64,000 bases of DNA from Cyanophora paradoxa CCMP329 (taxonomy: Eukaryota > Plantae > Glaucophyta). Positions 40,049 through 63,472 of this stretch are shown here, one piece after another. Both the position numbers and the translations under genes were made by a program. Under the pieces are notes generated by a model that was not told the DNA's origin, did no database searches, and saw nothing but the letters and a program-made list of their open reading frames with translations. Within the stretch, counting starts at the first letter, position 1. Every line of letters begins with the position of its first letter. The DNA is taken from the NCBI GenBank assembly GCA_004431415.1, contig QPMI01000417.1:185554-249553 (forward strand), given 5' to 3'.

Positions 40049-40765
40049 TCACTGGCCGAAGTGCGACGGTCCCCACTCGAGGTCGGGGTGGGGCCATGGG
40101 GGCCTCCGGCGGGGTACGATGCTCCCGCTTGCCAGCTCCATGTACTCCCCCACGGGGTTGTCTTCGTCTGCGAGGTCCTTATAGTTGCCCTTTACGAGAT
40201 CCGCTGCCGCTTTGCGCCAACGAACGGCCACGTTGTACGTGTTGTCGATGATGTTCTGTACCGTACCCTCCATGGGTATTAGAGACAGCTTATAGTCGAG
40301 GTTTCTCTTACGCAGGTTCAATTCCCTTTCGTAGTACTCCACTGCGTCCGGGAGGGCCCTGAGCTCCACCGCGTGCTCGCCCGGGTCCGACGAGCTAATG
40401 AGCCCGGAGCGCTGCAGTGCGTCTACAGCGGCCCGCATCAGGATTTTGCCCGCCCCCCGCATCGAATCCCTCTGCTCGGGCGTCCCGTACCCCCCGTGCG
40501 GCCCGTAATCGTTGTAGTAGCTTTCTATTTCGACGGTGGCTGGCTTATTGCCGACGCGAGGCTGGACGAAGCCGTATAACCATGCCATGGAGTCGTTGTC
40601 CGCGGAGCGGCCGCTCTCGGGAGACGATGAAAACACTTCGATTTTGAATTCCCTGGTCCGCCGGTTGACTCGTGTCATTAGGTTGAGGGGGTAGCGCGCA
40701 TTGCCGAATTTATCAGGAAAGAGGCGGTGTAGCTTGAACCACGCTTCCTGATCGCCGTACGACAT
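40049..40765 (-). CDS. Viral GNAT-fold acetyltransferase-like protein
   Basis: Acetyl-CoA loop-like MRGAGKILMRAAV followed by VELRALPDAVEYYERELN (motif B-like); intact 238-aa ORF. Confidence 0.6.
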   Translation of the reverse strand: MSYGDQEAWFKLHRLFPDKFGNARYPLNLMTRVNRRTREFKIEVFSSSPESGRSADNDSMAWLYGFVQPRVGNKPATVEIESYYNDYGPHGGYGTPEQRDSMRGAGKILMRAAVDALQRSGLISSSDPGEHAVELRALPDAVEYYERELNLRKRNLDYKLSLIPMEGTVQNIIDNTYNVAVRWRKAAADLVKGNYKDLADEDNPVGEYMELASGSIVPRRRPPWPHPDLEWGPSHFGQ

Positions 40766-40808
40766 TCGCTCGCGGCTCGCTGAGAATATCTACCTGTACC
40801 CCCTGCTG

Positions 40809-41486
40809 TTACTGCCCGAGCCTTGCAAACTTGCGCAACTCGGCCTCGCCCTGTACCCAGTGGCTGGTATCGGCCGTCCAATTGCGTAGCTCCCTCTGAC
40901 GCTTGAGTGACTCACGTTGCTCAGGTGAGGGGGAGGGGGGGCCGTACGGGGGTGCCATGGCTACGCGCCTCTTGGATGCACTGTCTTGGTCCTCCTCCCA
41001 GCCTTCAGGGATCAATTCAAGTGGGGGGGCGTACGGTCCCACGATTTGATCTTGTTTGTTTTTGGTGTAGTAGACGAAACCCTGAAACCGGCGCTTCAGA
41101 TAATTGAGCGGGCGATTGATGATCTCTTCGGGTGTGCCTGTATTCAGGAAGAAATCCAGGATCGCCCTCTGAACCTCTTCGGGCAGGTAGGCCATGAGGC
41201 TCTTGCGCGAGCCGAACGCCCACCAGAGCTTGCGAAGTTCATCGCGAATGCCGCGCATGTCATCGCGGTGTGCGATGTCGTTGACGGGTGGGTCGTACGT
41301 TTGGATGTGTACCCTTGACCCGAGGGCGTTGCGTGCGAGCTCGCGCAGCATCGTCGCAGCTGCGCCACCATCGCGCATTGTGTTTGGGATCTCTTCTTTC
41401 ACCCAACCGATCAGCCCGTTTACCTGCTTAGTGTAATCTCGGATGTACCCCGATAGCGGTGGGAGGGTAGTCTGATCGCCGGACAT
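40809..41486 (-). CDS. Viral hypothetical protein with internal F-box-like motif (paralogue 1)
   Basis: GIRDELRKLWWAFGSRKSLMAYLPEEVQRAILDFF; ATG follows the duplicated leader. Confidence 0.7.
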   Translation of the reverse strand: MSGDQTTLPPLSGYIRDYTKQVNGLIGWVKEEIPNTMRDGGAAATMLRELARNALGSRVHIQTYDPPVNDIAHRDDMRGIRDELRKLWWAFGSRKSLMAYLPEEVQRAILDFFLNTGTPEEIINRPLNYLKRRFQGFVYYTKNKQDQIVGPYAPPLELIPEGWEEDQDSASKRRVAMAPPYGPPSPSPEQRESLKRQRELRNWTADTSHWVQGEAELRKFARLGQ

Positions 41487-41527
41487 TTGCATTTGCACAC
41501 ATCGAGAAATTCTAATTACCCCCCTCC

Positions 41528-42106
41528 TCATTCGAGCCTCCTACGCTTCGCCTCCTTCTCTTCCGCTTCGCGTATGTACTGCTCCTGCCAGCGGGGGGGT
41601 AGCATCTCCAGGGGCATTGTGTAGTTCTCCTCGAGTGATTCCTGCCAGGGTAGCAGGGGCCGCGGCATCTGACGATTGTAACTGTCGCGGATGTGGAAGT
41701 AATTGACTACCCAGTTACGGAACGTCTCCAGCGGTTGATAGGGCTCGTTTGCCGTCGTCAGAGGCCGCTCGGCCGTCCACCACTTCTCGAAGATGAGCCG
41801 CTGAATCTCTTCTGGGAGGTCCAGTATCATGCTCTTCCGGCTCACGAATGCCATCCAGAGCTGTTTCAGTACGTTTCTGATACCGTACTCTCCGAAGCCC
41901 CAACGGTAGGGCCCAGCGGGCCGCCTGTCCAAGCTATCCCCGAACGCGCCCATGGCCAAGTCCAGATTCGGCTTCAGCTTGTTGTAGGGGGGAACGTATC
42001 CATTGCGCGCGGCCCCCGTGTTCGCTCTTATCCAGGGGATCAAATCTCTAACGTTCTCTACCATGCCCTTCACCTCGTCCCTCGTTGTTAGCTCGGGGTA
42101 TGACAT
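41528..42106 (-). CDS. Viral hypothetical protein with internal F-box-like motif (paralogue 2)
   Basis: GIRNVLKQLWMAFVSRKSMILDLPEEIQRLIFEKW; same leader as paralogue 1. Confidence 0.7.
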   Translation of the reverse strand: MSYPELTTRDEVKGMVENVRDLIPWIRANTGAARNGYVPPYNKLKPNLDLAMGAFGDSLDRRPAGPYRWGFGEYGIRNVLKQLWMAFVSRKSMILDLPEEIQRLIFEKWWTAERPLTTANEPYQPLETFRNWVVNYFHIRDSYNRQMPRPLLPWQESLEENYTMPLEMLPPRWQEQYIREAEEKEAKRRRLE

Positions 42107-42149
42107 TTGCACTTGCACACATCGAGAAATTCTAAACGCTACTGCAACG

Positions 42150-42785
42150 ATGGACCTACAACAGGGGAGCGCGGCGTGGCACGCTGCGCGCCGCGAAAAG
42201 CTAACTGCCTCGAACTTTGCGGCTGCGTGCGGCATAAATCCCTGGAAATCCAGGGCCCGCCTCTGGGCGGAGCTGAGCGGGATCGCGGAGGAAAACAACT
42301 TTGACAACCCTGCCCTAACCTACGGGCACGACTACGAGCCCCTCGCGGTCTCTATCTACAAGGCACTGAACGATAACGTTGACATTAAACATACTGGACT
42401 GCACGAACATAAAGAAATGCCGTTCCTCGCCGGTAGTCCCGACGGACTTATAGGAAATGATAGAATTTTAGAGGTGAAATGCCCGTACAAGGGCGAACTT
42501 TATGATAGAGTTCCTACCTATTATATGCCTCAACTGCAAGGACTTCTGGACATAACGGGCCGCGAGTGGGCCGAACTTTTTTGCTTCACTCCTCTGCGCG
42601 TGCAAACGTGGTACGTCAGGCGCGACGAGAGGTACATCGAGCTCATGAGGAAGTGCTTACATCTATTTTGGATGCACGTCAAGGAGGGTACGCCGCCCGA
42701 GCCCTACAGCGATCGAATGAAGTCAGAGAACCTCAGTGAGGAGCAGGCGGCGCTGCGCGAGTTTAAGTCGTACGCCCTCCTCTAG
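42150..42785 (+). CDS. YqaJ-like viral recombinase / lambda-type exonuclease
   Basis: QGSAAWHAARREKLTAS, GHDYEPLA, FLAGSPDG, ILEVKCP, YYMPQLQG: complete PD-(D/E)xK YqaJ motif set. Confidence 0.93.
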   Translation: MDLQQGSAAWHAARREKLTASNFAAACGINPWKSRARLWAELSGIAEENNFDNPALTYGHDYEPLAVSIYKALNDNVDIKHTGLHEHKEMPFLAGSPDGLIGNDRILEVKCPYKGELYDRVPTYYMPQLQGLLDITGREWAELFCFTPLRVQTWYVRRDERYIELMRKCLHLFWMHVKEGTPPEPYSDRMKSENLSEEQAALREFKSYALL

Positions 42786-42921
42786 TGTCCGGACCTTTCC
42801 AATACTCTATATGATTATTGGGAGGGTCCGGACACGTCTCTTGGTCAGACTACTTCTGTCCCAGGTCTTTGGAATCTTAATATAAATTTTCCCGGGACCC
42901 GGGACAGGGCTTGGTCGGACT
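42785..42921. terminator. Two tandem stem-loops between convergent viral genes
   Basis: Stems GTGTCCGGACC..AATA/TATT..GGTCCGGACAC (42785-42835) and CTGTCCC.GGTC..GGAA/TTCC..GACC.GGGACAG (42856-42907), each followed by CTTGGTCRGACT. The terminator role is inferred. Confidence 0.55.
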
Positions 42922-43164
42922 CACCGTAGCTTGGTGTAGCTCAGGCCCAGGCCGGGTAGGCGAGTCTGTAATGAATCAGACCGCGCAGGATTTGGTTGAG
43001 CTGCTCGGTGCAGGGGGGCGGGAGGGCGAGGCCGCGGAGGGCCATAGAGACGTAGCGGAAGGGGTGGGGGAGGCGGCCCCTGTTATCCCACATGGCGTCC
43101 ACTATGGCGTTGTGGACGGTTTGCTCGGAGAGGGGACGGGCCTGCGCGCACCGTTTCAGGGCCC

Positions 43165-45951
43165 TCAGCAGCCCTCGAAGATGTTGGAGTTGGCGTGCAC
43201 CAGCGGGAGGGAGGGCTGGGACGGCGGCGGCGAGCCCGGGGCCGAGCCCTGGGTGGCGAGGGCCTGCGAGGGCGCCGGCTCCAGCTCCATCTCGAAGATA
43301 CCGCCCTCGACGTCGACGGTCACGGGCGGCGAGGCCGGGATCGCGCCGGCCTGCTGCGTGGCGGGGACCTGAGCCGAGAAGTTCTCGAGCCGCCACTCGC
43401 GGCAGCCCTGGCACTCACCTGGACGAAGACGGTGCGGTTGGCGACGGGCGGCGCCGAGAGGGCCTGCGCGGGGGCGTCACTCACAGAAGCCGAAGGCGCC
43501 GGCCTTGTGGGGCGGGGCGTCGGGGTCGCGGGGCGTGCTATAGGCCTCCGAGCCCTCCGATTCAGAGTCACTCACCGGGCTGAGAGGGTGGGGTGAGAAG
43601 AGGCCGAGGCGGGCCTTCTTGGCGGGCAGGAGGTGGGAGCCGTTGAGGGCGCAATCGGCGCCGTGGGCGCACCTCTCTCCGTAGGTGGGGCAGAGGGCCG
43701 GGGGCGAGGGCGCCGGAGCCAAGGGCGCCGGAGCCGAGGACGCCGGGGGCTGGAGGAGGCGGTGAGAGGGGCCGAGGAGGAGAGGAAGGGGAAGGGCGCG
43801 GGCACCGGCGCCGGGACGAGGCCCTCCTCCAGCAGCCGCATCTGCGCCTCCTTCGCCTTCTCGTCGATGCGGGCCTCGAACGTCGCCCAGTTGAAGCCGA
43901 CGGCGTCCGCCTCCGCCAGCTCGGGGAGGCCGTGCTCGTCGAACGCCAGCGCGGGCCGCCCGCTGAAGCCGAACGGGGCGGGGGGCGAGAGCGCGTTGTC
44001 CCCGACGCCCCAGACGGCGCTGAACGCCGCATCGTCCCAGCGCGCCTCCGCCTCCGCCTGGCCCTCGTCCCTTGCCTCGTCCACCTCCTTGGCGGAGAGC
44101 GACCCGATCTTGATGATGGAGGCCTGGATCAGCACAAACTCGCGCTGGAAGAATTGGACGAGCGGGATGGTAACTGCGGGAGAGTGGGTGAGCGGGGAGA
44201 GCGCGGGGGCGCAGGCCAAGGGCGGGGCGGACGCACATTCGATGCCGTAGGCCACCTCCTTGATGTAGCGGCCCCGGCGGCCGATCTCCTTGGCCAGCAT
44301 GCTGCACTCCTTGCGCGCCGGGTGGCCGTGGCCCCACTCCATGGCGATCATCGCCTTCGCCAGACGGACGCCCTCGATGTGCCACTCGTCCATCAGCGCC
44401 TCCAGCTTGGCGCAGATGCGCATCCAGAAGAAGACGCGCTTGAGCTTGTCGCGGTCGAATTCGGCGTCGCCGCTCTTGCTGCCCCAGTCGCGCAGGTCCG
44501 TCTCCTCCGCCTTCTTCACCTTCTCGTACCAGCACTTGATCTTCTCCGCCTGGCGCTGGAACTCGTCCGCCCGCGCCGTGAGAACGTCCGACTCCTCCTG
44601 CGCTCCGAGGGCCCGGGGTCAGGGAGGAGAGGCGGGCTAAGCGGGGCGGCGGCGGACCGTGTGCGAGAGCTCGCCGACGATCACGGAGATGGCCGCCGAG
44701 AGGATCTCACGGGCGCGGGCCGGCCCGTTTGGGTGGCCCTCGCGCAGAACCTCCTCCAGCTTCAGCACGGCCGTCCGCGCGAGATCGCGGTGGCGCTGGC
44801 GGGTCTCGTCGCTCCGGCCCTGATCCACGAGAAGCTGGAGCTGGGGCCGCATGCCGGAGTCGCAGACGCTGGCGTACTTCAGAAGGGCCGCGCAGGAGAG
44901 CACCTTCTGCACGCTGACCAGCCAGTACGCGTAGCCCAGCGGGCTCTCCGCGCTCGGGTTCTCTCCGACCTGCGGACGCGACCTTAGCGCGCGCAGGGGC
45001 AGGGGAAAGGGGAAAGGGCGGGCTCTCGCGCACGTAAATGTCATCGGCGCAGGAGAGGAACATGTGATCAACGACGTCGAAGAAGCCGCCGGACGGGAGC
45101 GTGCCGACGCCGTGGTAAGCGCCGTTGGTGGTCTCGCCGGCGCAGATGCCGGCCTGGACGGTGACGGTGTACTGCGAGGCCGGCGGCCCCTCCTTCACGT
45201 AGACGAAGTTGAGGTCGTACTTCTTGGCGTACGTCGGGTTGATGCGCTTGGTGACGATGACGTAATCGCACCGAACGCCGAGGCCGGACGGGCTGGCCTT
45301 CTCCTTCTCCGTCACCGACGCCAGGCACTGATCCCGCGCGATCAAGAGCTGCGGCGGCCCGCGCGTGAGCAAGCGCGGGCACGCGAGCGCAGGGAAGGGC
45401 CCTCACCCCGTGGGCGCCGCCGCTGCCGGATTTGAGGTCCGCGAGGAACTCCTTCTGCTCCGGAGTGCCGGAGAAGATCGCGCGCGGATGGAAATCGCGA
45501 TGGAGCGCGATGCTGTTGAAGCAGCCCGCCGCCGCATTGTCGGACATCAGCAACAGCGCCACATCGCCGTGCGTGAAGCCGTACTTCGCCTTCACATACT
45601 CCGGCAGCTCGTGAATGCTGTAAGGCACGATCTGCGCGCGGGGCACGCGAGCCGGGGCATGTGAGCCGGGGCCGAAGCGGTGCGGGCGAAACCGCGAACC
45701 TCGTTGAACTTATTCACCGGCGTGAACTGGCCCTTGGCCTTCAAGCGCTTCGGGTGGCCGTCCGTGTTCTGGATCTTCTTCAGCCCGCCGAACGGCTCGA
45801 AGCGCGGCACGCCGGCCGAGTTGAACACGCTATCGCAGGTCATCGCGTTGAGCGCCTCCTCCGCTGACAGGCTGCCGAGATCGCGGGCTATGCTGTCCTG
45901 CTCGCCGGGCTGCTGCTGCTTCGCGCAGGAGCGGAAGGTCGCCGACTGCAT
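43165..45951 (-). CDS. Large intron-containing viral gene of unknown function with CCCH-like motif (3' end uncertain)
   Basis: About 7 short GT-AG introns join consecutive ORF segments in frame (..NKFNE|IVPYS..GAHG|LLIARD..DDIY|VGENP..LSHT|EESDV..); CPTYGERCAHGADCALNGSH lies near the C-terminus. Confidence 0.7.
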
Positions 45952-46071
45952 CGCGAGTGTTACTGCCCGCGATGTCTCAACGGATTCCGTTCAACGTCGT
46001 ACCCCCGCTGGCTTGTTCCCTCCCCAACTCGCGAAGACTCAGACTTGAAGCCCGCTTCCCCCCCCCTCAAA

Positions 46072-49000
46072 ATGCGTACCCCCCTTGGGCTCGAACCCCG
46101 GTCGGTTTCTCGCTTTTTTTGACTGCCCAGTCCGGCGATGCAATGCAGGCCGCTCGTTCAAATCGGCTGGGACCTTGGCGCCAGAACCTTCGCAGCGCGC
46201 GCAGCACTCCCAGCAGAGCGCGCGCAGCACCGGCGGCAGCATCGGCGGCAGCAGCATGTCTCGGCTCGCGCTCCCTCCGGAGATCCCGGCTAAGCTGGCG
46301 AAGAACACGCTGTACGACGTTCTCTGCGTCGGCGACAGCTTCGGCGTCGATTGGACGGTGTTCGAGGCCGGTATCAGCGACCAGGCGAAGGAGGCGCAGG
46401 CGCGTGCGCTGGAGGATGGCATGCAGTTCAGCCCGAACAGCAAGGATGTGCTGCGCAAGACCGAGCTGGCCGAGCGCAAGCGCAAGCTGGCCGCGGCGCG
46501 GACCTTGAACCTCGAGGGCGCCCCCGGCCCGTCGGTGCAGTTCTCCATCGACTCCGTCCTGTCGCGGCTGCGGCTCGCGGAGGTGCTCGCTGCCTCTTTC
46601 TCCCTCGCGCGCCCGGCTCGCAGCGGCTGAGGCGCCGCCGCGCTCGCAGGACGCGGACGTGCGGGCGATGCACGCGGCGCTGAACATGACGGAGGAGAAC
46701 TTCGACACACCGAGCAAGCCGAAGCCCGGGCGGGATGCCGACGCCCGCCGGCTGTTCGCGGCGCAGCGCCTGCGGCTGCTCATGGGCGCCGTGCCCCGGC
46801 ACATCGCCAAGGGCGAGTGGCGCACGATTGGCCTGCTGGCGGGCCCGGAGGAGTTCTACTTCAACCGCATGGCGGAGGCGGCCCCGCACCTGCTCTGGCT
46901 GCTGGTGCTCAGCTCGGACCCGGCCTACACGCCCGAGGTGCGCCCCAGCCGCCCGTGCCCCCTCCCCGCCGACCCCCGCCGGCCCGCAGAGGCTGGCGAA
47001 GGGCATCATGGGCGTCGAGGCGCGCTGCATCATGCGGAACAGCCGCGCGTTCATCACGCGCCACGAGAGCTCGGCGGTCTGGGGCGAGCGGCCGGATACC
47101 GGCGTCCTCACCGACGCCTACGCCATCCGCATCGTGCTGGAGGCGGCCTGCCGGACGTGCCGGGACCGCCACGGGCGCCAGGGCATCTGCGCCTTCGACC
47201 TGGTTCCTGAGTTCGAGGTGCCCGGCGTCACCATCGGCGACCGCGTGCAGGTGCGCCGTTTCCAGCCGTTTCTATTTGGATGCTATTTAGATGCTATTTA
47301 GAGTATTTAGATGCCATTTAAACCCCCTCGCAGGTCATCCGCCGGTGCTCGATGCCGGACTCGCACGGGCGCCCCATGATCCACGGCGCCGTGAAGTACG
47401 TGGTGCCGCGGCGCACCCTCGCCCTCGCCTTCTTCGTCCCCGTCTTCGACAAGGCGGCCGCCGCCGCCGCCGCCGCCGCCTCCCGCCCCCGCCCCATGCT
47501 CGCGGCCGCGGAGTCCTCGGATTCCGACTCGGATTCCGAGGCGGAGCGCGAGGCCGAGGCCGCCGCCGCGGCCCGGGCGCTGGACTTCACGGAGGAGGAG
47601 CTGGAGCGGGCGCGGAGCCTGCCGCGCGCCGGCCAGGCGATGGCGGCGGCCTTCCAGGTGGCGATCGGCGAGGCGACGGCCTCCGCCTCGGGCGCCCGGG
47701 CCGGCGGCAGCATGATCACGGCGGAGGGCCTCGCGCGCGCCATGCGCGTGGCCCAGGCCCAGGCCCAGGCGAAGGGCAAGGGCAAGGGCAAGGCCGCCTA
47801 CATCGACCTGCGGTTCGAGGAGGAGGAGGCGGGTGCCCCGGCGGCGCGGCGCGATCTCGGCGAGGAGATGGAGGCGGCGGCCCCCAAGGCGGCCGGTGCG
47901 CCCTCCCCGCCCCTAATTTCTGAGCCTAGGGCGTTCCAGAGGCGCCAAGGAATGACCCTGCCCTCAGAGGAGGAGCTGGAGGCCGAGCGCGCGATGGAGG
48001 AGGAGGCCGCGCTGGCGGCGGCGGCGGACGCGAAGGCCTCGCGCGAGCTGGAGGTGGCGGAGGAGTACGCGATGGAGCTGGAGCGCGAGCGCGAGCGCGA
48101 GGGCGAGCCCGATGCGGAGCTGGCGGCGACGGTGGAGGCGGCGGCGGGGGACACCTTCGAGCCCGAGCCCCCCGTCGACGAGTTCTACCCCCTCCCGCCC
48201 TCCCCCTCCCTCGAGTACGCCCCGCCGCCGCCCGTGGAGGAGTTCTCGGACGACGAGCCCGGCGACGCTGGCCCCAGGCCGCCCCTCGTCTCCCCCCGCC
48301 GCCCGCCCGCCCCCGTGCCCCCCGCCAGCCCCGCCGCCTCCGACGTCTCCTGGCGCCCGAGCGGCAACCCCTCGGCCTTCAGTCCCTTCCGCCCCTCGCA
48401 GCCCTCGCAGCGCCCGCCGCCCTCCGTCCAGGGTACCCCCCTCGCCCGCCCCATCCCCTCGCCGCCGCGGGGCACGCCCGTCGCCACGCCCGCCTCCTCC
48501 CTCGGCCACATGCCCCCTCCGCCCCCTCCGGCCCCCGCGCCGGCCGCCTCTCCCGCCGGGCCCAGCAGCGGCGCGAGCGCGAGCGGCAGCTGCTGCGCGA
48601 TCAGCGGGCGGAGGCGGAGGCGGACCACGACGACGGCCAGGCGTCGGAGAGCGACGGCGAGCCGCCGCGCGCCACCAGGCTGGAGCTGGCGCGGGCGGAG
48701 CTGGCGGCGCAGCCGCGCGAGGCGCCCGAGATCGACATGTCCAAGTACGACGACGTGACAACGTACAGCAAGGACAACAAGTCCAAGAAGGAGGCGGCCA
48801 TTCAGGATGCGCTCCGCCTCTTCGTCAAGAACAACGTGCGCCCCGCCCCCCTTAGCTGCGCGCCCCGCCCCTTTAGAGGCCGGAGGCGGCCGTGGCCCAG
48901 CTGCTTAAGGCGCTGGGTCCGAGCCGCCTTCGGCCGGTGCGCCCCCCTCCCCGCGTTCGAACCCCGCTAACCCCCTTTTGCCGGCGCAGCGGATCGTGCG

Positions 49001-51434
49001 CCAGAGACCCTACGGCCCGAACTCCCCGCCCACCTTCTACGTCGAGCTCCCGAACCTCTTCGTGTACGACAAGGTCAGCGCGAACAGGCACGCCGGGCGC
49101 GGGACGATGAAGGAGGTCATCCAGCTGCTGGCGATGACCTTCCACAAGACCTACGAGTCCAGCCCCGGCTCCTTCGAGTTCACCTTCTCGAAGGAGGTGC
49201 TCTCGGGGCGGACGCGCACGTTCGTGGAGGAGTCCCTCCAGCTCGAGGACGTCTGCCCGAGATGCCCGTCATCCCCGGCTTCGCCTTCGCCTGCGACACG
49301 CGTGCGCCGCCCGTACCCCTGCGCCCCGCCCCGTACCCCGCCGACGCCCCTTGCGCAGATTTCGTGGTGCGGGCGCCGCAGGACAGCACGGGCAGCGCCT
49401 GCGTCCTCGTCATGACGCACGAGGAGGCACGGGAGCGGTACGCGGGCTACATGAACACCTGCTACATCCAGGGGCGCCTGCCCGCGGGCATCGAGGAGGC
49501 GACCGAGACCTGCGACTGGCCCACCGTGTACGGCATGCTGCACCCCTTCATGCCCAACGTCGTCAAGCACCTGGCGGACAACGGCTACGTGACGGCCGAC
49601 GAGTTCGGCTACGCGGCGGCCGTCCTCTACGCCTTCAACCTCGTCGGGCCGTGGAACTTCTGCGACAAGCCCGTCTTCGACCGGGAGCCGCGCGCGGAGA
49701 TCGAGCCGCCGTCCGAGGGCGCCATGCTGCAGTACTGCGGCATCATCAAGGGCCAGTCGGGCACAGGCAAGTCGATGGTGACGCAGATCATGACGGAGTG
49801 CCTGCCGCCGGGCCGCGTCTGCGTCTACCGCCCCTCCAAGGGCTCGGCCTTCTCGGAGCACGGCGGCGAGGAGGCGATCTGCATGGTGATGGCGGAGGGC
49901 CTCGACCCTAAGGCCTGCTCGGAGGAGGAGCTCAAGATGCGCTCCGGCGACGCCTACTCCCGCAACTTCAAGAACGTCCGCGGTGACGATGTGCGCACCA
50001 AGGCGACGCGCAAGGTGCTTGTCATCGTCTGCAACAGCTTCCCGCAGGTGCGCCCGTTCCCCTGCCCCCCTTCCCCTTCCCCGGCGCCCTTTCTCACTTG
50101 CCCCGGCGCAGCTCGAGAACCGCATGCTCGAGTTCTTCGCCCGCGTCGTCCTCATCCCCCTCGACCACAAGCCGGCCAAGAAGCGCACCTACCTCCACTC
50201 CGACATCCGCGAGAACGAGCTGCCGGCGCTCATGGTCGCGGCCTTCACCTTCGCGTGGAAGATCATCCACGCGCTCTCCGACGGCAAGGCCTCCTGCATC
50301 CAGGCCTTCGAGCCGGCGTGGCTGCGGGCGCAGCGCCTCGGCTTCTGGCAGGAGACGACCAAGTGCCCCCTCACCCGCTTCATCGTCACCCACTGCGCCG
50401 TCGACCCCACCACGTACGTCGCCGCCCCGAACACGGAGGGCTACATGACGAGCGTCGCGGGCATCGTCGAGTACATCGCGCGCACGGAGGGCCCCGACAC
50501 CTCCGCCGCCGTCGGCGCCGACATCGAGAACGGCCGGCTGGACGAGACCCTCGCCGGCTTCGGCTCCTGGTGCCGCCCCTACTCCTACAAGCTCGGCGGC
50601 GTCTGGCAGACCTACATCCGCGGCATCGTCCCCAAGGCCCCGCTCTCCCTCGGCGAGAGCCAGCCGGCGCTGGAGGCGATCGCGATCCCCGTCGCGCAGT
50701 TCAAGGACCCGGTGGCCGACGTCGGGCCCTTCCTCGTCCAGCCCCACACCAAGGGCAAGGGCAAGCGCACCCGCAACTCGGCGCCGGCCTTCCTCCCGCC
50801 CCAGCCCCCCGCCACGGCCCCCCAGCAGCGCCCCGGCCAGCAGCGCATCGACGAGATGCTGCCGCGCCAGGTCCGGCCCCGCGTACCCCCCGCCTTCCCT
50901 CCCGTACCCCCCTCCCCCGCCCCCCTCCTGATCCAAGGGCAGGGTACCCCGACGAACGGCGGCGCGGGCCCGAGCGGCTACGGGAGCTCGGCCTCCTCCG
51001 CGAGCGCCGACGGCCCCAGTCCCCTCCCCGGCCCCGGCGCCGTCCTCACCGCGATCCAGGGCTTCGGGGCCCAGCAGGAGGCCGAGCGGCGGGCGCTGGC
51101 GGCGCGCCAGGCGCGCGAGGCGGAGGAGCGGCGCCAGGGCCTCTGGGCCCGGCGCATGCAGGAGACCGCCGCCTTCCGCGCCGAGCTGGAGGCGGACTTC
51201 CGCGCGAAGCGGATGAGCGCGGCGGAGGCCGTGGAGAGCTGGCGGGCGTTCGAGGACGGGACCGTGGAGCTGGCGAAGGGCCTCAGCTACAGCTACCGGC
51301 GGGCGCCGGTGCCCACCTCGTACGCAAGGCGGGCGGCGCGGGAGGCCTCGCGGGCGGAGATCGACGCGGCGGAGGAGCAGGCGGCGCGCGAGGAGGCCGA
51401 GGACGAGGCGCGCTTCCGGCACCTGCACCACTGA
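46072..51434 (+). CDS. Large intron-containing viral replication protein with SF3 (D5-like) helicase domain; apparent frameshifts
   Basis: Walker A IIKGQSGTGKS, Walker B-like ICMVMAE, motif C VLVIVCNSFP, then RVVLIPL. Introns include 46076-46130, 46582-46649, 46938-46989, 47251-47333 and 50048-50111. May be two genes. Confidence 0.75.
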
Positions 51435-51483
51435 GGCCCCGAGGCGGTATTTTTTCTCAACCCTCCCTCAATTCGGTCCCGCG

Positions 51484-51672
51484 ATGGCCTTCGAAGCTTA
51501 TCCTGCCCATTACTCGCTAGGAGCGCTGGCCGCGACCCTCACCTGGCTCCTCGGCGGCACCCCCACGGCCTCGGCGGTCATCGGCGTGGGCTTCGGCTAC
51601 GCCGCCAAGTCCCTCTACGCCCCCGGCTCCTGCTCGCAGGCGGCGGCCGGCATGCGCCCCGCCGGGCGCTAA
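51484..51672 (+). CDS. Small viral membrane protein
   Basis: 62 aa with two hydrophobic segments; upstream TTTTTCT motif. Confidence 0.55.
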   Translation: MAFEAYPAHYSLGALAATLTWLLGGTPTASAVIGVGFGYAAKSLYAPGSCSQAAAGMRPAGR

Positions 51673-51767
51673 CTTTTCAAAGTTCATTCTCCCCTCCCCC
51701 TTTTCCGAGTTCCGAGTCCGTTGGCGTTCCCTTTTAAATTTTCTTCATTCTCGTTACACGTTCGAAG

Positions 51768-52247
51768 ATGTCGAGCGCGGTAGAGAAGCTGCTGTGCACC
51801 GTGTTCAAATCGGATTCGCGATGCAGCAAGATCGGCGAGGCGGCGAGGGCTAAGGGCGGGGCGGCGGCGGAGGGGCCCAGGGTGAAGGCGGCGGATCCCG
51901 CGCCGCCGTCGCTGAAAACGATCAAGGGGGCGGGCAAGGGCAGGAGCGTGGGGGCGCTGCCCCTCGTGGCGATCGCGCCGGGGCAGAGGGAGGCGGCGCA
52001 CGCGGCGACGGCGGCGCTGGCCGCGCGGCGGCAGGCGGAGGCCTACCCGTGCCTGGGCCGGGGGCTGCACCCGCCGGCCGGCCGCCCCTACGCCGTGAGC
52101 GCCTACTTCGACGAGGCCAACCGGCTGAGCTGCCAGGAGCTGTGCGACAACCGCATGCGGCGCGCCGTGGACGGGCACCTGCCGCTGCTGGTGGCGCTGG
52201 GCGGCTCGCTCCTGATGGTCTGGTACCTGCGCGGCCTGGTCATTTAG
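51768..52247 (+). CDS. Viral hypothetical protein with C-terminal TM helix
   Basis: LPLLVALGGSLLMVWYL tail; upstream ATTTTCT motif. Confidence 0.55.
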   Translation: MSSAVEKLLCTVFKSDSRCSKIGEAARAKGGAAAEGPRVKAADPAPPSLKTIKGAGKGRSVGALPLVAIAPGQREAAHAATAALAARRQAEAYPCLGRGLHPPAGRPYAVSAYFDEANRLSCQELCDNRMRRAVDGHLPLLVALGGSLLMVWYLRGLVI

Positions 52248-52284
52248 ATAGTTTTTCGAAACCCCGGTTGGAAGCTAGCCAAGG

Positions 52285-52611
52285 ATGAGCTGGCTCGATG
52301 CGCTGCTCACGAAGACCTTCGGCCCCAAGGGCCAGCCGCGCCTGCAGTTCGGCGAGATCAACGCGGCGATTGGCGCCACGGTGGAGACGAAGAACCGAGA
52401 GAACGTCCTGCGCGGCGACGGAGGCGCGTGGGCCGACATCGCGGCGGGCGCCCTGGGCTCCGCGCTCACCGCACCGGGCAAGGCGGGCCGCGCGCTGACG
52501 GACGGGGCCGAGCGCTTCTGGCACTGGCTCAAGGTGGCCGTTGTCATCGCCGCAGCGGTTGTGGCGGGTCTCCTGGTGCTCGAGGCTCGCGCGCTATTTT
52601 CTAAACGCTAG
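52285..52611 (+). CDS. Viral membrane protein
   Basis: 108 aa with WLKVAVVIAAAVVAGLLVL TM segment; GC3-rich codons. Confidence 0.65.
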   Translation: MSWLDALLTKTFGPKGQPRLQFGEINAAIGATVETKNRENVLRGDGGAWADIAAGALGSALTAPGKAGRALTDGAERFWHWLKVAVVIAAAVVAGLLVLEARALFSKR

Positions 52612-52627
52612 GTAAACCGAGCGAACC

Positions 52628-53000
52628 ATGCGCGGCGGCTCTTCCCCCGTGTTTCCTTCGCTGAGAACCCGGTGGCGAACGCAGTCGCCCCTACCCCCTG
52701 GAGCCCGGAGTGAAGCTGGAGCGTGCGAACGCAGTCTCCGTCAAGAAGGCCAAGCGCACGCTGGCGCTGGAAGTCCCGGTCGCGGAGGATACGGAGAAGG
52801 TTGCATTCAACAAGCGCAAGACGTACAAGGCGATACGCGAGGGACAGCTGCTGCCCACGGACTCGGTTCCCGGGCTGCCGGGCACCACGGCCGGCGAGCT
52901 CCTAGTGCGCAACCTGCGCCTGCAGTACGTCTCCCGCCTCCGCCGCTCCAAGGCCAAGAAGGCGCGCCTGGACTCGGGCGATAGCAGCTCTAGCTCGTAG
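52628..53000 (+). CDS. Basic viral hypothetical protein (5' structure unresolved)
   Basis: Coding-like frame 52710-53000. The motif-preceded ATG at 52628 is out of frame, implying a frameshift or intron. Confidence 0.45.
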
Positions 53001-53027
53001 GGCTCTGTACTGTTGTATTCAATGCCT

Positions 53028-53312
53028 TTACCAGTTCCTGTTCCTATCCCAGAGCACGACTCGGGTGAAGGGCACGGTCATAGCGAACATGAACTCGGCG
53101 AACTTGGCAAAGTTCATCAGGGTTCCCAGGCGGGGATCCTCCCAGTAGATCGCCTCGCGCAGCGCCTCGTAGACGCGCATGAGGGAGCGCTCGTTCTCCG
53201 TCGCGAAGGCGTCGCCGGGCTCGTCGGGGTCGGGATCCGTGAGCTCGGAGTACTCGTCCGAGCTGCCCGCGCTCTCGGCACCTGCGGCGGGGTCGGGCGA
53301 GGGGTCGGGCAT
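53028..53312 (-). CDS. Viral hypothetical protein, acidic N-terminus
   Basis: 94-aa ORF with upstream GATTTTCT. Confidence 0.6.
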   Translation of the reverse strand: MPDPSPDPAAGAESAGSSDEYSELTDPDPDEPGDAFATENERSLMRVYEALREAIYWEDPRLGTLMNFAKFAEFMFAMTVPFTRVVLWDRNRNW

Positions 53313-53338
53313 TCTCTACTAGAAGAGGGACCAGAAAA

Positions 53339-53680
53339 TCACGGGCGCCGGAACTCCATCGAGTCGCCGCGCCAGTACTTGTTGCCGGAGGCGAGCAGCT
53401 TCATCGGCTCGCCCGTCGAATCGTGCTTCCAGGCCTCGCCGTCCCAGAGGGCCGTGCCGCCGTCCTCTAGCTTGAGGCGGTGGCCCGGCTCGAGACGGTT
53501 GCCGTCGAGCATGCGGCCGGCCATGAGCGCCAGGTCCCACTCGGTGAGGTTGCGCTGCTCTGCGGGGGTGAGGCCGCGCTCGACGCGCTCGGGCTGGCGC
53601 GCCTCGCGCTCCATGCGGCTGAGGCCCACCAGGAAGAAGATGGGCAGGGCAAAGGCCATGAGATCTAGCAGGGCCTCCAT
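53339..53680 (-). CDS. Viral protein with N-terminal hydrophobic anchor
   Basis: MEALLDLMAFALPIFFLVGL...; upstream CTTTTCTAA. Confidence 0.6.
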   Translation of the reverse strand: MEALLDLMAFALPIFFLVGLSRMEREARQPERVERGLTPAEQRNLTEWDLALMAGRMLDGNRLEPGHRLKLEDGGTALWDGEAWKHDSTGEPMKLLASGNKYWRGDSMEFRRP

Positions 53681-53690
53681 TGGGCAAGAC

Positions 53691-53978
53691 TTAGAAAAGG
53701 TTCCGGACCAGGCCCGAGAGCTGCGGGCCCAGGCGCCGGGCGGCGTAGTAGAGCGCGGCCGCCGCCGCCGCAAGGATGAGCAGGCGCGGCGGGCCGCGCG
53801 CCGGCTCCTCCAGCGTCAGGTCCACGGTCTCCGGCCCGCGCGCCGGAGCCGCCAGGATCTCGGGCTCGGAGCAGAGGGACTTGGGCCCGCGGCGGCGGCG
53901 CTGCTTGGGCGCCGAGGCGGCGGCGGTGAGAAGGTCCTCAGGCTCCTGCTTGATACCTGCGCAGTCAGTAAAGTCCAT
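53691..53978 (-). CDS. Viral protein with C-terminal TM helix
   Basis: LLILAAAAAALYYAA segment; upstream AATTTTCC. Confidence 0.55.
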   Translation of the reverse strand: MDFTDCAGIKQEPEDLLTAAASAPKQRRRRGPKSLCSEPEILAAPARGPETVDLTLEEPARGPPRLLILAAAAAALYYAARRLGPQLSGLVRNLF

Positions 53979-54678
53979 GCTTGCTGGGTACCTTGGAAAA
54001 TTGTGGGAGGCGTCCGGAGATTGCGAACGTAGGAGGGGGGAGAAATGACGCGGACGCAAAAGATTCCGTCATGGGTTTTCCGTCATGGGCTGGAACTTGG
54101 ACTCGGGACTCGGCCGGGAATTCTCCCGGTAAGTTCGAGACTTGAACTCGGCGGGGTACCCCCTATGTCCAAATGTCCTAGTATCCTAGTAGTACTAAGT
54201 AGTACTAGCTAGGTGGTATCGATATCTAGCTAGCTAGCGCTAGCGCTTGCTTAATTAATTAACTGAAAGGTTGCGGAGGTTGCGGACGCGTCACAATTCC
54301 GTCATGGGTTTTCCGTCATGGGCTGGAACTTGGACTCGGGACTCGGCCGGGAATTCTCCCGGTAAGTTCGAGACTTGAACAAGAACGACGTACCCCACTT
54401 GTGACCGTTCTATACTACATTAAAGTATTCATTGATTGTGAATAACGATAATGTATAGCAACTTGAAATTACCTTCAAGTCGAATAGAGGGGTACAGAGT
54501 CGGTACGTTAGACTTGACAAAAACACGTGTATTTTTTTACGCCGAGTTTTGCGGCCGAGTCCCGAGTCCAAGTTCCAGCCCATGACGGAAAACCCATGAC
54601 GGAATTGTGACGCGTCCGCAACCTCCGCAACCTTTCAGTTAATTAATTAAGCAAGCGCTAGCAAGCACTAGCTAGATA

Positions 54679-55107
54679 TCACAGCTCTACCTTGCCCAAG
54701 TTGATGGTATCTAGCAAGGCCTGCTCCTCCAAGTCTGCACCACCGCCGCCGCCCAGCGCTAGCGCTAGCTCGATACCGCCTCCGGCCTTGATCTCCCTTG
54801 GCTCCAGCCACCTGAGAGGCTCGGGCCACCTCCTCCTGGTGAAGCCGGTATCGTTGCTCTTGTCCAGCTTGAGGTAGCGGTAGGGCGCCGGCGCCGGCCA
54901 GTCCGGCCTGTGGCCGCTTGCCTCCTTGGCTATGTCCTTGGGCCTACGCGGACGCAGGTCGGCCTTGGCCTTCGCCCTCTGCAGGGGGCCCAGCGCCTTG
55001 AACTTCGGTGCCTTGGTCGCCGGCAGGGCCTTGGGCTGGGGCTTCTGGGGCTTCTGCGTCTTCACCGCCTTGGGCTTCGGCATCCTTGGCTGCTTCGATT
55101 TCGGCAT
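54679..55107 (-). CDS. Lys/Pro-rich basic protein (candidate DNA-condensing protein)
   Basis: MPKSKQPRMPKPKAVKTQKPQKPQPK...; upstream CTTTTCTCA. Confidence 0.6.
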   Translation of the reverse strand: MPKSKQPRMPKPKAVKTQKPQKPQPKALPATKAPKFKALGPLQRAKAKADLRPRRPKDIAKEASGHRPDWPAPAPYRYLKLDKSNDTGFTRRRWPEPLRWLEPREIKAGGGIELALALGGGGGADLEEQALLDTINLGKVEL

Positions 55108-55345
55108 ACTTCTTGCTCATAAATGAGAAAAGCGCCACGAAGTCAGCTTTTATCTCCTCCTTGGTCCAGGATGTCACCTGATCCGGGTCACCTGAGAACG
55201 GCGCATCGAACGCCACGTGGAGCGATTTGCAGGCCTGGGCAATCATTGGCTCGGGCCATGCCAGCTCGATCAGCTGAAGGTAGATGTTGAGGGCCTTGTC
55301 GAGCTTGGCGCCCTGGGAGACCAGCTGGGAGATGGCGGGCTCCAT
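54944..55345 (-). CDS. Viral hypothetical helical protein; overlaps the next gene
   Basis: MEPAISQLVSQGAKLDKALNIYLQLIEL...; upstream ATTTTCT and CCACCATG context. Confidence 0.55.
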   Translation of the reverse strand: MEPAISQLVSQGAKLDKALNIYLQLIELAWPEPMIAQACKSLHVAFDAPFSGDPDQVTSWTKEEIKADFVALFSFMSKKYAEIEAAKDAEAQGGEDAEAPEAPAQGPAGDQGTEVQGAGPPAEGEGQGRPASA

Positions 55346-55496
55346 GGTGGGTAGACTAGCATCAGAAAATGGCGCCAAGTTCGAATCTATTTTTTTACCG
55401 GGAGAGTCTGGGCCCGAGTCCCAGGTCCAAGTTCCAGCCCATGACGGAAAACCCATGACGGAATCTTTCGCGTCCGCGTCACTTCTCCCCCCCTCC

Positions 55497-55538
55497 TCAG
55501 CTGAGCGCTCACCTGACCCTCACCTGAACGGCCTCAAA
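55497..55538 (+). promoter_or_regulatory. TCASCTGA (E-box-like) cluster, repeated at ~55874-55921
   Basis: TCAGCTGAGCGCTCACCTGA...GGCCTCAAA precedes ORF 55593; TCACCTGAGCGCTCAGCTGA...GGCCTCAAA precedes the SSB gene. Confidence 0.55.
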
Positions 55539-55592
55539 ACCGCAGCCCCGCCGCGCCCTCTCCTCACACTTCAAAGCCAAGAGAAATCAAGA

Positions 55593-55862
55593 ATGTGCAT
55601 CCCCACGTACTTCACCTGCTGTCTCACCTTCGGCATCTTCGCATACGTCATATACGACGATGAGTTCGACCGAAACACGTTCTACTTCTGCAAGCTCCTT
55701 CGCGACATTTCGTCGGAGCACCGCAAGGGCGATGAGTATGATTGGATTCAACTGCTCCCCCTCAAGAACGAGATCGTACTGTGGAGAGAGAAGTGCATTG
55801 TAGGCAGGTTCAAGATTAGCTCGATTCGTGTAGCCGTCGTAGAGGATATGATGGTGAATTGA
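55593..55862 (+). CDS. Small viral hypothetical protein (lower GC)
   Basis: 89-aa beta-rich-looking ORF downstream of the TCASCTGA cluster. Confidence 0.5.
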   Translation: MCIPTYFTCCLTFGIFAYVIYDDEFDRNTFYFCKLLRDISSEHRKGDEYDWIQLLPLKNEIVLWREKCIVGRFKISSIRVAVVEDMMVN

Positions 55863-55967
55863 ACACGTGTTTTACCTGAATCACCTGAGCGCTCAGCTGA
55901 AGTCAGGCCGGGCGGCCTCAAATATTTTCTAGCGCTAGGCCGAAGCACACTCTAAGCCAAAGCAACA

Positions 55968-56714
55968 ATGGCCACCGTCCGCAACGCCAACGAGATCGAC
56001 CCCGCCAAGCTCGCCTTCGAGATCGACGCCACCGGCCGCATCAAGGCCAAGTACGACGGCCTGCAGGGCCTCATGATGTACGCGCCGCCCATGGTCACCA
56101 TCAACCCCTGCATCAACACCGAGCAAGGCAAGGCGTGGAGCGACGAGAAGAAGGCCTTCGTCATGGAAGAAAACGGCGGATTCTACACGCTGGACCTCAC
56201 CGATCTCAGCGCCGTCGACGGCCAGACGAACCCCGCCGCGGACGAGTTCCTCAAGCTGCTCGAGGCCCTGGACGCGAAATTCTGCGAGTTCGTGCAGCAG
56301 AACCAGGCCAAGCTCAAGGTCTCGCCCGGCCGCGCCCTCTCCAAGGACCAGATCTCGGTGCTGCAGACCCCCAGCGTGCGCATCAAGGTCGACAAGGAGT
56401 CGGGCCAGGCCTTCTACAAGTACCTCAACATGCGCATCCGCACCCAGACGATGGCGGGCAAGCGCAAGACCGTGCCCGTCGTCGACATGTCCAACTACCT
56501 CATCACCGAGCGCGCCACCATCGGCACCGGAGACCTGGTGGCGGCGCTCATTAAAATCGACACCGCCTACGCCATCCCCGAGGGCAAGTTCGGCCTCAAG
56601 TGGTCCTTCCTCGCCGTGCAGCAGTGCAAGGTCGGCGCCTTTCGCTTCGCCGGGCGCGCCCCGAGCTGGCCTTCAAGCCCTACGACAACGAGGCCGATTT
56701 CGAGCCCTACCTAA
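55968..56714 (+). CDS. NCLDV-type ssDNA-binding protein (DUF2738 / T7 gp2.5-like OB fold)
   Basis: FLKLLEALDAKFCE, ..IGTGDLVAALIKIDTAY..GKFGLKWSFLAVQ pattern. Probable frameshift near 56640-56670 hides an acidic tail (YDNEADFEPY*). Confidence 0.75.
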   Translation: MATVRNANEIDPAKLAFEIDATGRIKAKYDGLQGLMMYAPPMVTINPCINTEQGKAWSDEKKAFVMEENGGFYTLDLTDLSAVDGQTNPAADEFLKLLEALDAKFCEFVQQNQAKLKVSPGRALSKDQISVLQTPSVRIKVDKESGQAFYKYLNMRIRTQTMAGKRKTVPVVDMSNYLITERATIGTGDLVAALIKIDTAYAIPEGKFGLKWSFLAVQQCKVGAFRFAGRAPSWPSSPTTTRPISSPT

Positions 56715-56801
56715 ACCCCGAGTCTATGTACGCAGCCCCATGCAGTAGCTCGGACGAATAAATTGTGAATTTTTGGTGCAATTGATTACAAGCTTTTACA
56801 C

Positions 56802-57603
56802 TCAAAGGCCGTTGAACTTGCCGCCCACCGCCTTGGGCTCCGCCGCCGTCGAGGCCGCCGCCTCCGTCACCTCCTTCATCACCTCTGGGTTCGCGTTCGC
56901 CGCGTGCACCGCCAGCACCGTCTGCACCAGGGCCATCCCCAGGCGCGCCTCGGGCCCCAGGGTCACGTAGCGCGAGTACTTAATCACCAGCTCCTCTAAG
57001 ATCGGCTGCACCTGGTCCATCGAAGAGAGCGTCGCCTGCCCGAGCCCGTCGAGCTTCAGGCCGATCGGATCGTACGCCTTGTTGAGGTGCTCCAGCGAGT
57101 GCATGCCCGCGATCAGAAAGAGGCGCGCCGCCTCCAGCGAACCCCGCGTGCTCAGCTCGCGCTGAATCTCCTCGTACTCTTCCTTCAGCTCGTCCAGCGG
57201 CGTGGCCAGGCTCAGCTTCTTCGTGGACGTAAGCTCGCCCCCGAACGAGCGCCGGTACTGCGCGATCTGCCGCAGGACCTGCTTCTTCTCGTCCACGTCC
57301 ACCTGCGCCTCGTCCCGCGGCCGCTCCTGCAGGTCGATTCCCAGCGCCTTTTTCACGCTCTGCTCCTTCTTCTTCGTCATTTCGATGTGCTCCTGCACGC
57401 TGAAGCCCGCGCCCTTGCTCGGCGCCGTCGGCGGCACCGCGGGCCCGTCGCCCGGCAGCGCCATCCTGTCGGCCTTCGGCGCCTTCTCCCCTTTTCCTTG
57501 CCCTCCTTCGCGGGGCGGCCCTTCTTCCGGGCTGCGGGATTCCCACGGGGTTCGGCCCGTCCACGGCCAGCGCCTCGAAGCCAAGCATCGCCGAGGGGTC
57601 CAT
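56802..57603 (-). CDS. DUF5767-like NCLDV-conserved protein (one frameshift near the 5' end)
   Basis: EKKQVL..LDELKEEYEEI..SLEHLNKAYDPIGLKLDG..ILEELVIKY..PEARL..VH..N matches the recalled family pattern. Confidence 0.75.
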
Positions 57604-57632
57604 CCTTTACGCCTGCCCCTTAGAAATATTTT

Positions 57633-57962: not shown

Positions 57963-57974
57963 GCTACGCGTGCT

Positions 57975-59177: not shown

Positions 59178-59256
59178 CGCGCCCCGGTTAGGATCCCAGT
59201 GGGAAAATTTATTGGTTCACATCGGCCTACCAAGCACACCCTGGCTAACAAGCAAT

Positions 59257-60613: not shown

Positions 60614-60655
60614 GGTGGTTTAGGGGTGCGTTGAGAAAATTTTTTGGGTGGACGC

Positions 60656-63224: not shown

Positions 63225-63472
63225 CGGGGTACGGGGTCACTGAGAAATAACACTGGGTCGGAAGAGGAGGTACCCCACCAGGATCCCCGCTATAATCCAG
63301 AGGGCGACCAGTCGCGCTCCGCCGGCGCGCCCCCGGGCGTCACCATCAGCTGCCCCGCCCCGGGCCTGCGCAGGCCGTGCGTGCGGTCCGCCAGTGCGGG
63401 CGCGGGAACTGCTCCTGCGGCATGCGCTCGGGGTAGATGCCGTCGAATCGGTTCTGCATTTGGTACATGTCC

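What the first reader, a model, noticed from the sequence alone, without database searches (positions are those of the whole stretch)
43165..51434. Spliceosomal introns confined to two divergent large viral genes
Seen: roughly 14 or more short GT-AG introns resembling host introns (GTGCGC...GCAG) in the head-to-head pair whose ATGs are ~120 bp apart (45951 and 46072). MCP, SSB, YqaJ and the small genes appear intronless. Inference: a two-tier programme in which early replication genes are transcribed by host Pol II and spliced while late genes are not. Random intron gain after integration would not be expected to be this selective.
Basis: partly seen in the sequence, partly recalled or inferred. 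Interest (0 to 1): 0.8.

Follow-up and report, generated by a model that had tools for sequence, protein, structure and literature searches.

The report
Two spliced genes in algal provirus
A virus-like element present in dozens of copies in the genome of a freshwater alga has host-style introns, which are spliced out, in only two of its genes, while most of its other genes lack introns and share an upstream signal that those two lack, so it likely runs two separate transcription programmes, as recently reported for a giant algal virus.

Summary
The window holds a multi-copy endogenous element with a divergent Nucleocytoviricota-type capsid gene; database labels name the host as the glaucophyte Cyanophora paradoxa. 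Gene L (orphan, 746 codons) has 8 coding introns. Gene R (D5-like SF3 helicase) has 7 shown plus 2 probable. All 15 appear as GT-AG joints in RNA-like contigs of four studies and in neither DNA-like run. The other 22 ORFs (12.9 kb, including a 2-kb gene) are intronless; about 28 introns would be expected at the L/R density. New here: a WWTTCT motif lies 18-43 nt before the ATG of 17 of 22 intronless ORFs (background 2.6%) and is absent before L and R. Corrections: the split is L/R versus the rest, not replication versus structure, because YqaJ and the SSB-like gene are intronless and carry the motif. L is not shown to be a replication gene. Read-through RNA is also spliced in UTRs and antisense across YqaJ. 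Timing is untested. The principle is known (punuivirus preprint 2026; mirusvirus paper), and this scan noted a similar split in another genome (e1-9528742). New variant in an apparently undescribed small virus lineage.

The parts
43165..45951 (-). Gene L: orphan protein, 746 codons, 9 coding exons, 8 introns
   Evidence: copies on 26 contigs; no family in Pfam, PHROGs or Atlas
45632..45699 (-). L intron 1, 68 nt
   Evidence: joint in X1, X5, X9
45349..45406 (-). L intron 2, 58 nt
   Evidence: joint in X1, X5, X9
44970..45033 (-). L intron 3, 64 nt
   Evidence: joint in X5, X9
44598..44657 (-). L intron 4, 60 nt
   Evidence: joint in X1, X5, X9
44174..44236 (-). L intron 5, 63 nt
   Evidence: joint in X1, X5, X9
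43750..43805 (-). L intron 6, 56 nt
   Evidence: joint in X1, X5, X9
43464..43575 (-). L intron 7, 112 nt
   Evidence: joint in X1, X5, X9
43354..43418 (-). L intron 8, 65 nt
   Evidence: joint in X1, X5, X9
42594..43151 (-). Three introns downstream of L's stop (43151-42966, 42924-42704, 42660-42594); the last two overlap YqaJ antisense
   Evidence: CT..AC joints in X1, X5, X9, none in X15
45952..46071 (.). 120-nt spacer between the divergent genes (61% GC), without the WWTTCT motif; likely bidirectional Pol II promoter (inferred)
46072..51434 (+). Gene R: about 1500 aa, unknown N-terminal part, low-complexity middle, D5_N/DUF5906-like SF3 helicase; annotated start 46256; two frame slips in the window
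46076..46130 (+). Possible R intron (55 nt), needed only if translation starts at 46072; unconfirmed
   Evidence: no joint displayed
46583..46649 (+). R intron, 67 nt
   Evidence: joint in X2, X9, X19
46938..46989 (+). R intron, 52 nt
   Evidence: joint in X2, X9, X19
47251..47333 (+). R intron, 83 nt
   Evidence: joint in X2, X9, X19
47896..47967 (+). Probable R intron, 72 nt, in frame
   Evidence: joint in a variant copy in X19 (table 5c); removed in models P0001, P0003
48836..48989 (+). R intron, 154 nt
   Evidence: joint in X2, X9, X19; homologous intron sequence read through in diverged copy P0013
49302..49358 (+). R intron, 57 nt
   Evidence: joint in X2, X9, X19
50048..50111 (+). R intron, 64 nt
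   Evidence: joint in X2, X9, X19
50871..50942 (+). R intron, 72 nt
   Evidence: joint in X1, X5, X9 and X2, X9, X19
51447..51520 (+). Intron in R's read-through 3' region; removes the motif and ATG of the next small ORF
   Evidence: joint 51439-51520 in X1, X2, X19; GT..AG ends; my reading of a variant-copy joint
42150..42785 (+). YqaJ-like recombinase, no coding intron, motif at -22
   Evidence: Pfam PF09588 E 1.7e-28
55968..56740 (+). SSB-like gene (label from recalled pattern, not confirmed by any library), no intron, motif at -43
56802..57603 (-). DUF5767 protein, no intron, motif at -24
59257..60613 (-). Major capsid protein, Nucleocytoviricota-type, no intron, motif at -26; several 1-nt slips in the window
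   Evidence: unspliced contigs in X1, X2
60646..62609 (-). About 2-kb proline-rich gene, colinear with a copy's model, no intron; many 1-nt slips
40049..64000 (.). Extent of the element in the window; it runs off the right end

Best explanation
This is a multi-copy endogenous virus with a giant-virus-type capsid whose two divergent genes L and R are spliced like host genes and are likely transcribed by host RNA polymerase II as a resident (latent or early) module, while the intronless genes share a WWTTCT upstream motif that likely marks a separately switched viral promoter class. Shown: splicing of 15 coding introns, absence of coding introns in the other 22 ORFs, the motif before 17 of those 22 and not before L or R, an SF3 helicase in R, and introns shared among copies. 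Inferred: L and R are made from a GC-rich bidirectional promoter while the element sits in the chromosome; R unwinds the element for amplification and L would be a regulator. The motif class (capsid, YqaJ, SSB-like, small ORFs) would be turned on in a productive phase, most likely in the nucleus by Pol II under a viral factor. Introns would be tolerated or favoured where expression is host-like and selected against where output must be fast or splicing-independent. Read-through from L and R is spliced at cryptic sites beyond their stops.
For: Joints in RNA-like runs of four studies and none in two DNA-like runs. One open frame after splicing. P = 1e-7 for confinement, about 28 introns expected elsewhere; a 2-kb gene is intronless, so gene length does not explain it. 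Motif before 17 of 22 ORFs against 2.6% of element windows and 11 of 474 other ATGs, absent within 120 nt of the L and R starts; it also sits between head-to-head genes 42106/42150, where no upstream gene ends. R's C-half matches DUF5906/D5_N helicase clusters at 0.97. R lies next to L on 18 of 21 contigs; the capsid is within 20 genes of L/R on 9 of 20 contigs, chance 1e-7. A copy with 74% helicase identity keeps sequence homologous to the 154-nt intron at the same place. Precedent: punuivirus has intron-rich latency genes and a promoter-motif virulence class (10.64898/2026.10.09.758095, sections 5 and 11).
Against: No timing, start-site or polymerase data. The motif was defined after seeing the sequences, and for three ORFs I took an inner ATG (14 of 19 without them); 5 of 22 lack the strict motif. 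Replication-type genes (YqaJ, SSB-like) fall in the motif class. L has no assignable function. 16 of 26 contigs with capsid-side genes have no listed L/R, and 13 of 29 L/R contigs have no listed intronless gene (lists are truncated and contigs may break inside repeats). No ATPase, late transcription factor or integrase was found in the window. No environmental relative was found, so introns in a free virus are not shown.
Confidence: 0.6

Rival explanations
1. Module chimera: L-R is a long-resident, host-adapted mobile replication module that gained introns over time and was joined to an intronless capsid module. The pattern would then record different ages, not a regulatory programme.
For: L and R stay together (18 of 21) more tightly than either stays with the capsid side (10 of 26). 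Both lack the motif. Two helicase alleles at 74% identity exist among copies.
Against: Linkage to the capsid is far above chance, and gene spacing is similar across contigs. Missing partners can come from truncated lists, frame slips and contig breaks. This rival is compatible with the best explanation as an origin story.
Confidence: 0.2
2. Helper-dependent element: the motif class is read by the RNA polymerase of a co-infecting giant virus in the cytoplasm, where introns cannot be removed, while L and R act first in the nucleus.
For: All-or-none absence of introns in the motif class. The motif (often TTCTA, AT-flanked) resembles the AT-flanked TCTA late motif shared by mavirus and CroV, and mavirus-like elements have no introns (PMC8547959, passages). 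No RNA polymerase gene in the window.
Against: Unspliced capsid contigs occur in RNA-like runs X1 and X2, with no helper known (not tested). The capsid is Nucleocytoviricota-type, and mriyaviruses with such capsids are predicted to be nuclear (PMC11253617, passages). The likeness to TCTA is short and was not scored.
Confidence: 0.15
3. Decay after integration: introns accumulated in whichever genes happened to stay transcribed, and the element is a relic.
For: Introns in endogenous nucleocytoviruses have been read as decay (stated in PMC12768974, and in the punuivirus preprint). The window has many frame slips. Cryptic splicing of read-through RNA shows how easily the host finds splice sites here.
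Against: The displayed slips are filled in both RNA-like and DNA-like contigs, so those are assembly errors (table 4). 12 copies have capsid models of 454-462 aa. No DNA contig showed the joined form at any of the 15 introns. Intron positions are shared across copies, so gain preceded amplification.
Confidence: 0.05

Closest known systems
Punuivirus, latent giant virus of Chlamydomonas reinhardtii (bioRxiv 10.64898/2026.10.09.758095; abstract and sections 5 and 11 read)
   Same: Integrated Nucleocytoviricota-type virus in an alga; host-like spliceosomal introns in one gene class; an AT-rich viral promoter motif in the other class.
   Different: 617 kb, 506 genes, own RNA polymerase, 61 intron genes with 2.5 introns each, statistical enrichment. 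Here: about 24 genes in view, no polymerase seen, 8-9 introns per gene in just two genes, an all-or-none split, dozens of copies, glaucophyte host.
Mriyaviricetes / NCLDV-dwarf-like viruses (PMC11253617 and bioRxiv 10.64898/2026.06.19.733378; passages read)
   Same: Small genome with NCLDV-type capsid, SF3 helicase with a replaced N-terminal part, PD-(D/E)XK nuclease, SSB-like gene, no DNA or RNA polymerase in view; endogenous forms known in chlorophytes.
   Different: ATPase, VLTF2/3, RuvC and HUH endonuclease not found in the window (element incomplete). Capsid only 21-38% identical to the nearest unrelated representatives. The word 'intron' does not occur in either paper's main text.
Intron-bearing mirusviruses and pandoraviruses (PMC12768974, PMC5995976; passages read)
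   Same: Spliceosomal introns as a sign of nuclear transcription; the mirusvirus paper states that introns restricted to early genes mark an early nuclear phase.
   Different: Intron-rich mirusviruses enrich introns in capsid and morphogenesis genes, the opposite of here. Pandoraviruses average about 1.2 introns per gene and have them in virion-protein genes too.
Mavirus-like endogenous virophages, EMALEs (PMC8547959; passages read)
   Same: Multi-copy integrated elements with a short AT-flanked motif upstream of most genes.
   Different: Virophage capsid and integrase, and no introns in any gene; here an NCLDV-type capsid and two intron-dense genes without the motif.

Membership tests
Nucleocytoviricota-type element | Double jelly-roll capsid of the NCLDV family | tested here: met
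   Pfam Capsid_N 32 bits, cut-off 24; a profile with 14 distant relatives hits PBCV-1 and other NCLDV capsids (profile dominated by the relatives)
Nucleocytoviricota-type element | Packaging ATPase, DNA polymerase, RNA polymerase | tested here: inconclusive
   None among the ORFs scanned; the element runs off the window and no whole genome is held
Mriyaviricetes | SF3 or SF2 helicase as the C-terminal part of a larger protein | tested here: met
   Walker A motif and AAA/RNA_helicase hints below cut-off; Atlas DUF5906/D5_N 0.97
Mriyaviricetes | PD-(D/E)XK nuclease | tested here: met
   YqaJ E 1.7e-28; orthology to the mriyavirus gene not tested
Mriyaviricetes | HUH endonuclease, VLTF2, VLTF3, RuvC, ATPase | tested here: inconclusive
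   No hit in the window ORFs scanned; rest of the element unseen
Mriyaviricetes | Capsid groups with yaravirus/gamadvirus capsids in a tree | not tested
   No named mriyavirus capsid was returned by the searches
Polinton-like viruses / virophages | PLV- or virophage-type capsid, protein-primed polymerase or integrase, terminal repeats | tested here: inconclusive
   Capsid is NCLDV-type, not virophage-type; no polymerase or integrase in view; internal inverted repeats at 54035-55492
Punuivirus-type two-part architecture | Host-like introns concentrated in one gene class | tested here: met
Punuivirus-type two-part architecture | Viral promoter motif upstream of the other class | tested here: met
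   WWTTCT before 17 of 22 intronless ORFs and 0 of 2 intron genes; promoter function inferred
Punuivirus-type two-part architecture | Different timing of the two classes, 6mA marks, virion production | not testable with these tools
   Only contigs were available; they cannot rank expression or show starts
Introner-generated introns | Introns of one family similar in sequence | tested here: not met
   All-against-all comparison of 22 introns gave only 11-20 nt low-complexity matches
Ordinary host genes | Orthologues outside the viral context | tested here: not met
   All 24 R hits and 22 L hits carry EukProt labels of one style, and those resolved name C. paradoxa; the word-based search has limited reach

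The most novel reading that the evidence does not exclude
An undescribed, still mobile family of small viruses with giant-virus capsids lives as dozens of proviruses in a glaucophyte and splits its life between two transcription machines: a two-gene, host-spliced nuclear module (helicase plus orphan regulator) and an intron-free module whose WWTTCT promoter is read by a helper giant virus, which would make it a virophage-like parasite built on an NCLDV capsid and point to an unknown glaucophyte giant virus.
Probability: 0.15. Interest if true: 0.85.

Novelty: new variant of a known kind. Interest (0 to 1): 0.62.

Why it matters
Introns in integrated giant-virus DNA were long read as decay; punuivirus suggested they can mark a working latency programme. 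This element shows the same split in a far smaller, unrelated virus and in another algal lineage, with host-level intron density in two genes and none in about 22 others, mirrored by a single short motif. It sits in a cultured alga with public RNA data and many near-identical copies. That makes it a compact system for asking whether splicing selects which viral genes are expressed during latency, and how polymerase-less relatives of giant viruses switch on their capsid genes.

Tried and rejected
My first sequence-only model was wrong in three places and was corrected by RNA-like contigs: a 93-nt L intron at 43672-43580 is exon; L's last acceptor is 43354, not 43369; the 41+53-nt pair in R is one 154-nt intron.

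Structure predictions of L (pLDDT 30) and of R's helicase half (pLDDT 36) were unusable; the fold search on the latter gave no match at E<=0.001. Atlas search of L gave no usable hit, which shows neither novelty nor absence. PDB sequence searches of R and the SSB-like gene gave nothing.

No environmental relative with DNA context: capsid in viral contigs and metagenomes, helicase in metagenomes. These scans find close relatives only, so the comparison of intron positions in free relatives could not be made.

No listed holder is on record as RNA. Runs X1, X2, X5, X9 and X19 are treated as RNA because they hold joined forms that X15 and X18 lack. Depth differences (L/R covered in all five RNA-like runs; capsid mainly in X1 and X2; X19 without cover at 55582-59193) are not used as evidence: the runs were found with L/R, and contig depth cannot rank genes. 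That the capsid contigs begin at the ATG, just after the motif, is likewise not used.

Joint 42361-42519 (GG..CC) is not canonical and was set aside. Joint 52041-52178 has 35 other letters from a variant copy and is uncertain. No RNA joint was displayed in 52600-64000, but 63 rows were hidden, so that blank is not proof.

An introner origin was rejected. Literature searches found no description of this element or its introns. PMC12344493 (abstract and passages) reports giant-virus insertions in C. paradoxa, and PMC12220804 (passages) mentions a PLV there. I did not open supplements; those and non-open papers may list the element. Of the 'Ariadnavirales' preprint I read part 1 of 4; it did not bear on this element.
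Full report
Setting. The left 38 kb of the window is host sequence with many short introns. From about 40,050 to the right end lies a compact block of mostly short ORFs. Searches with pieces of the two large genes and of the capsid returned many near-identical EukProt models; those resolved name Cyanophora paradoxa. By label, L occurs on 26 contigs, R on 21 and the capsid on 20. No whole genome was held.

The introns are real. I laid 7 of the 22 listed runs. Five behave as RNA (X1, X2, X5, X9, X19; four studies) and two as DNA (X15, X18; one sample). All 8 coding introns of L appear as CT..AC joints, 7 in three runs and one in two, and none in X15; removing them gives one frame of 746 codons. 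Seven R introns appear as GT..AG joints in X2, X9 and X19 and none in X18. Lengths and splice sites match the host. The contigs merge copies: at several sites all of them differ from the window, so the evidence is for the family. Many of the window's frame slips are filled in both RNA-like and DNA-like contigs and are assembly errors.

The other genes have no coding introns. The capsid gene is colinear with full-length copies and is crossed by unspliced contigs in X1 and X2. The SSB-like gene and the 56.8-58 kb genes are crossed likewise. The 60646-62609 gene, about as long as L, is colinear too. A splice model from the 15 introns finds nothing in 8.7 kb of nine other genes (circular for L/R, informative for the rest). 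At L/R density about 28 introns are expected in the 12.9 kb of other ORFs; the chance of all 15 falling in L+R is 1e-7. Outside coding sequence the confinement fails: three joints lie beyond L's stop, two of them antisense to YqaJ; one lies beyond R's stop; and one probable antisense joint covers 52236-52469. These are best read as cryptic splicing of read-through RNA (inference).

A second signal marks the intronless class. WWTTCT lies 18-43 nt before the ATG of 17 of 22 intronless ORFs (21 of 22 for WWTTC). It is found in 2.6% of 40-nt windows of the element and before 11 of 474 other ATGs, and is absent within 120 nt of the L and R starts. I defined the motif after seeing it and chose inner ATGs for three ORFs; without them it is 14 of 19. 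It occurs in both directions between the head-to-head genes at 42106 and 42150, which fits a promoter better than a terminator. YqaJ and the SSB-like gene carry it, so the split is L/R against everything else, not replication against structure.

What L and R are. R's C-terminal half has a Walker A motif and matches D5-like SF3 helicase clusters (DUF5906, D5_N, Pox_D5) at 0.97 in the Atlas; its N-terminal part is unassigned. L has no family in Pfam, PHROGs or the Atlas, and no usable model. It has a conserved Cys/His stretch resembling a CCCH finger (recalled pattern, no library hit). Neither gene had a hit outside this family. The capsid passes Pfam's Capsid_N cut-off, and its nearest unrelated representatives are 21-38% identical.

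The introns predate the spread of the copies. No DNA contig showed the joined form at any of the 15 sites. Mis-spliced models of R copies with 74% helicase identity read through sequence homologous to the 154-nt intron (P0013) and the 72-nt intron at 47896 (P0014) at the same positions. The introns are not similar to one another. R is next to L on 18 of 21 contigs, and the capsid is within 20 genes of L/R on 9 of 20 (chance 1e-7). However, 16 of 26 contigs with capsid-side genes show no listed L/R. Truncated lists and contig breaks may explain this, but it keeps the module-chimera rival alive.

Mechanism. Most likely (0.6), L and R form a resident module transcribed by host Pol II from a GC-rich bidirectional spacer, and the motif class is switched on separately for amplification and particle formation. 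Splicing, the motif and the helicase are shown; polymerase, timing and L's role are inferred. Rivals: separate ages of two joined modules (0.2), a helper virus polymerase for the motif class (0.15), decay (0.05).

Comparison. Punuivirus shows the same logic at 617 kb, and the mirusvirus paper states the early-gene-intron idea in general form, so the principle is known. The gene set resembles mriyaviruses, but their defining HUH, VLTF and ATPase genes were not seen in this partial view, so membership is not claimed. Ten literature searches found no account of this element or its introns; supplements were not opened. An earlier scan note (e1-9528742) reports introns absent from capsid genes in a Polinton-like element of another genome; I did not test it. 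Verdict: real, a new variant of a known kind, interest 0.62.

Noticed in passing
window 54035-55492: Nested inverted repeats in the middle of the element: 98-nt arms 1262 nt apart, 129-nt arms 202 nt apart, and an exact 85-nt direct repeat. Could be a replication origin or joined genome ends of a circularised form.
   Followed up: no
window 42594-42924 (-): Spliced read-through of L runs antisense across the 3' part of YqaJ in three studies; possible antisense control of a motif-class gene.
   Followed up: partly
window 52042-52469 (-): Probable spliced antisense RNA over small plus-strand ORFs (joint 52236-52469; a second donor at 52178 in a variant copy).
   Followed up: partly
window 43142-43200 (-) and 42941-43141 (-): Annotated copies use another 59-nt intron and a 66-codon last exon that is conserved among copies, giving L a second C-terminus; its joint was not among the displayed rows.
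   Followed up: partly
window 48836-48989: The 154-nt intron contains an in-frame 60-nt segment with its own acceptor and donor (48877-48936) that is skipped in the displayed joints; possible cassette exon.
   Followed up: partly
window 40809-42106 (-): Two tandem ORFs with a shared 34-nt upstream repeat (D12) and similar sequence; one has a weak F-box-like hint (E 0.07).
   Followed up: no
L and R coding introns: 13 of the 15 shown introns are phase 0; not compared with the host average.
   Followed up: no
window 23234-24135 (+): Host cyanase gene with four introns, used as the host control.
   Followed up: yes
proteins P0054, P0055: More distant capsid relatives (59% identity) in the same host, suggesting a second subfamily of the element.
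   Followed up: no
window 1807-2230 and 6948-7388: Host repeat copies about 5.15 kb apart, 83-91% identical.
   Followed up: no
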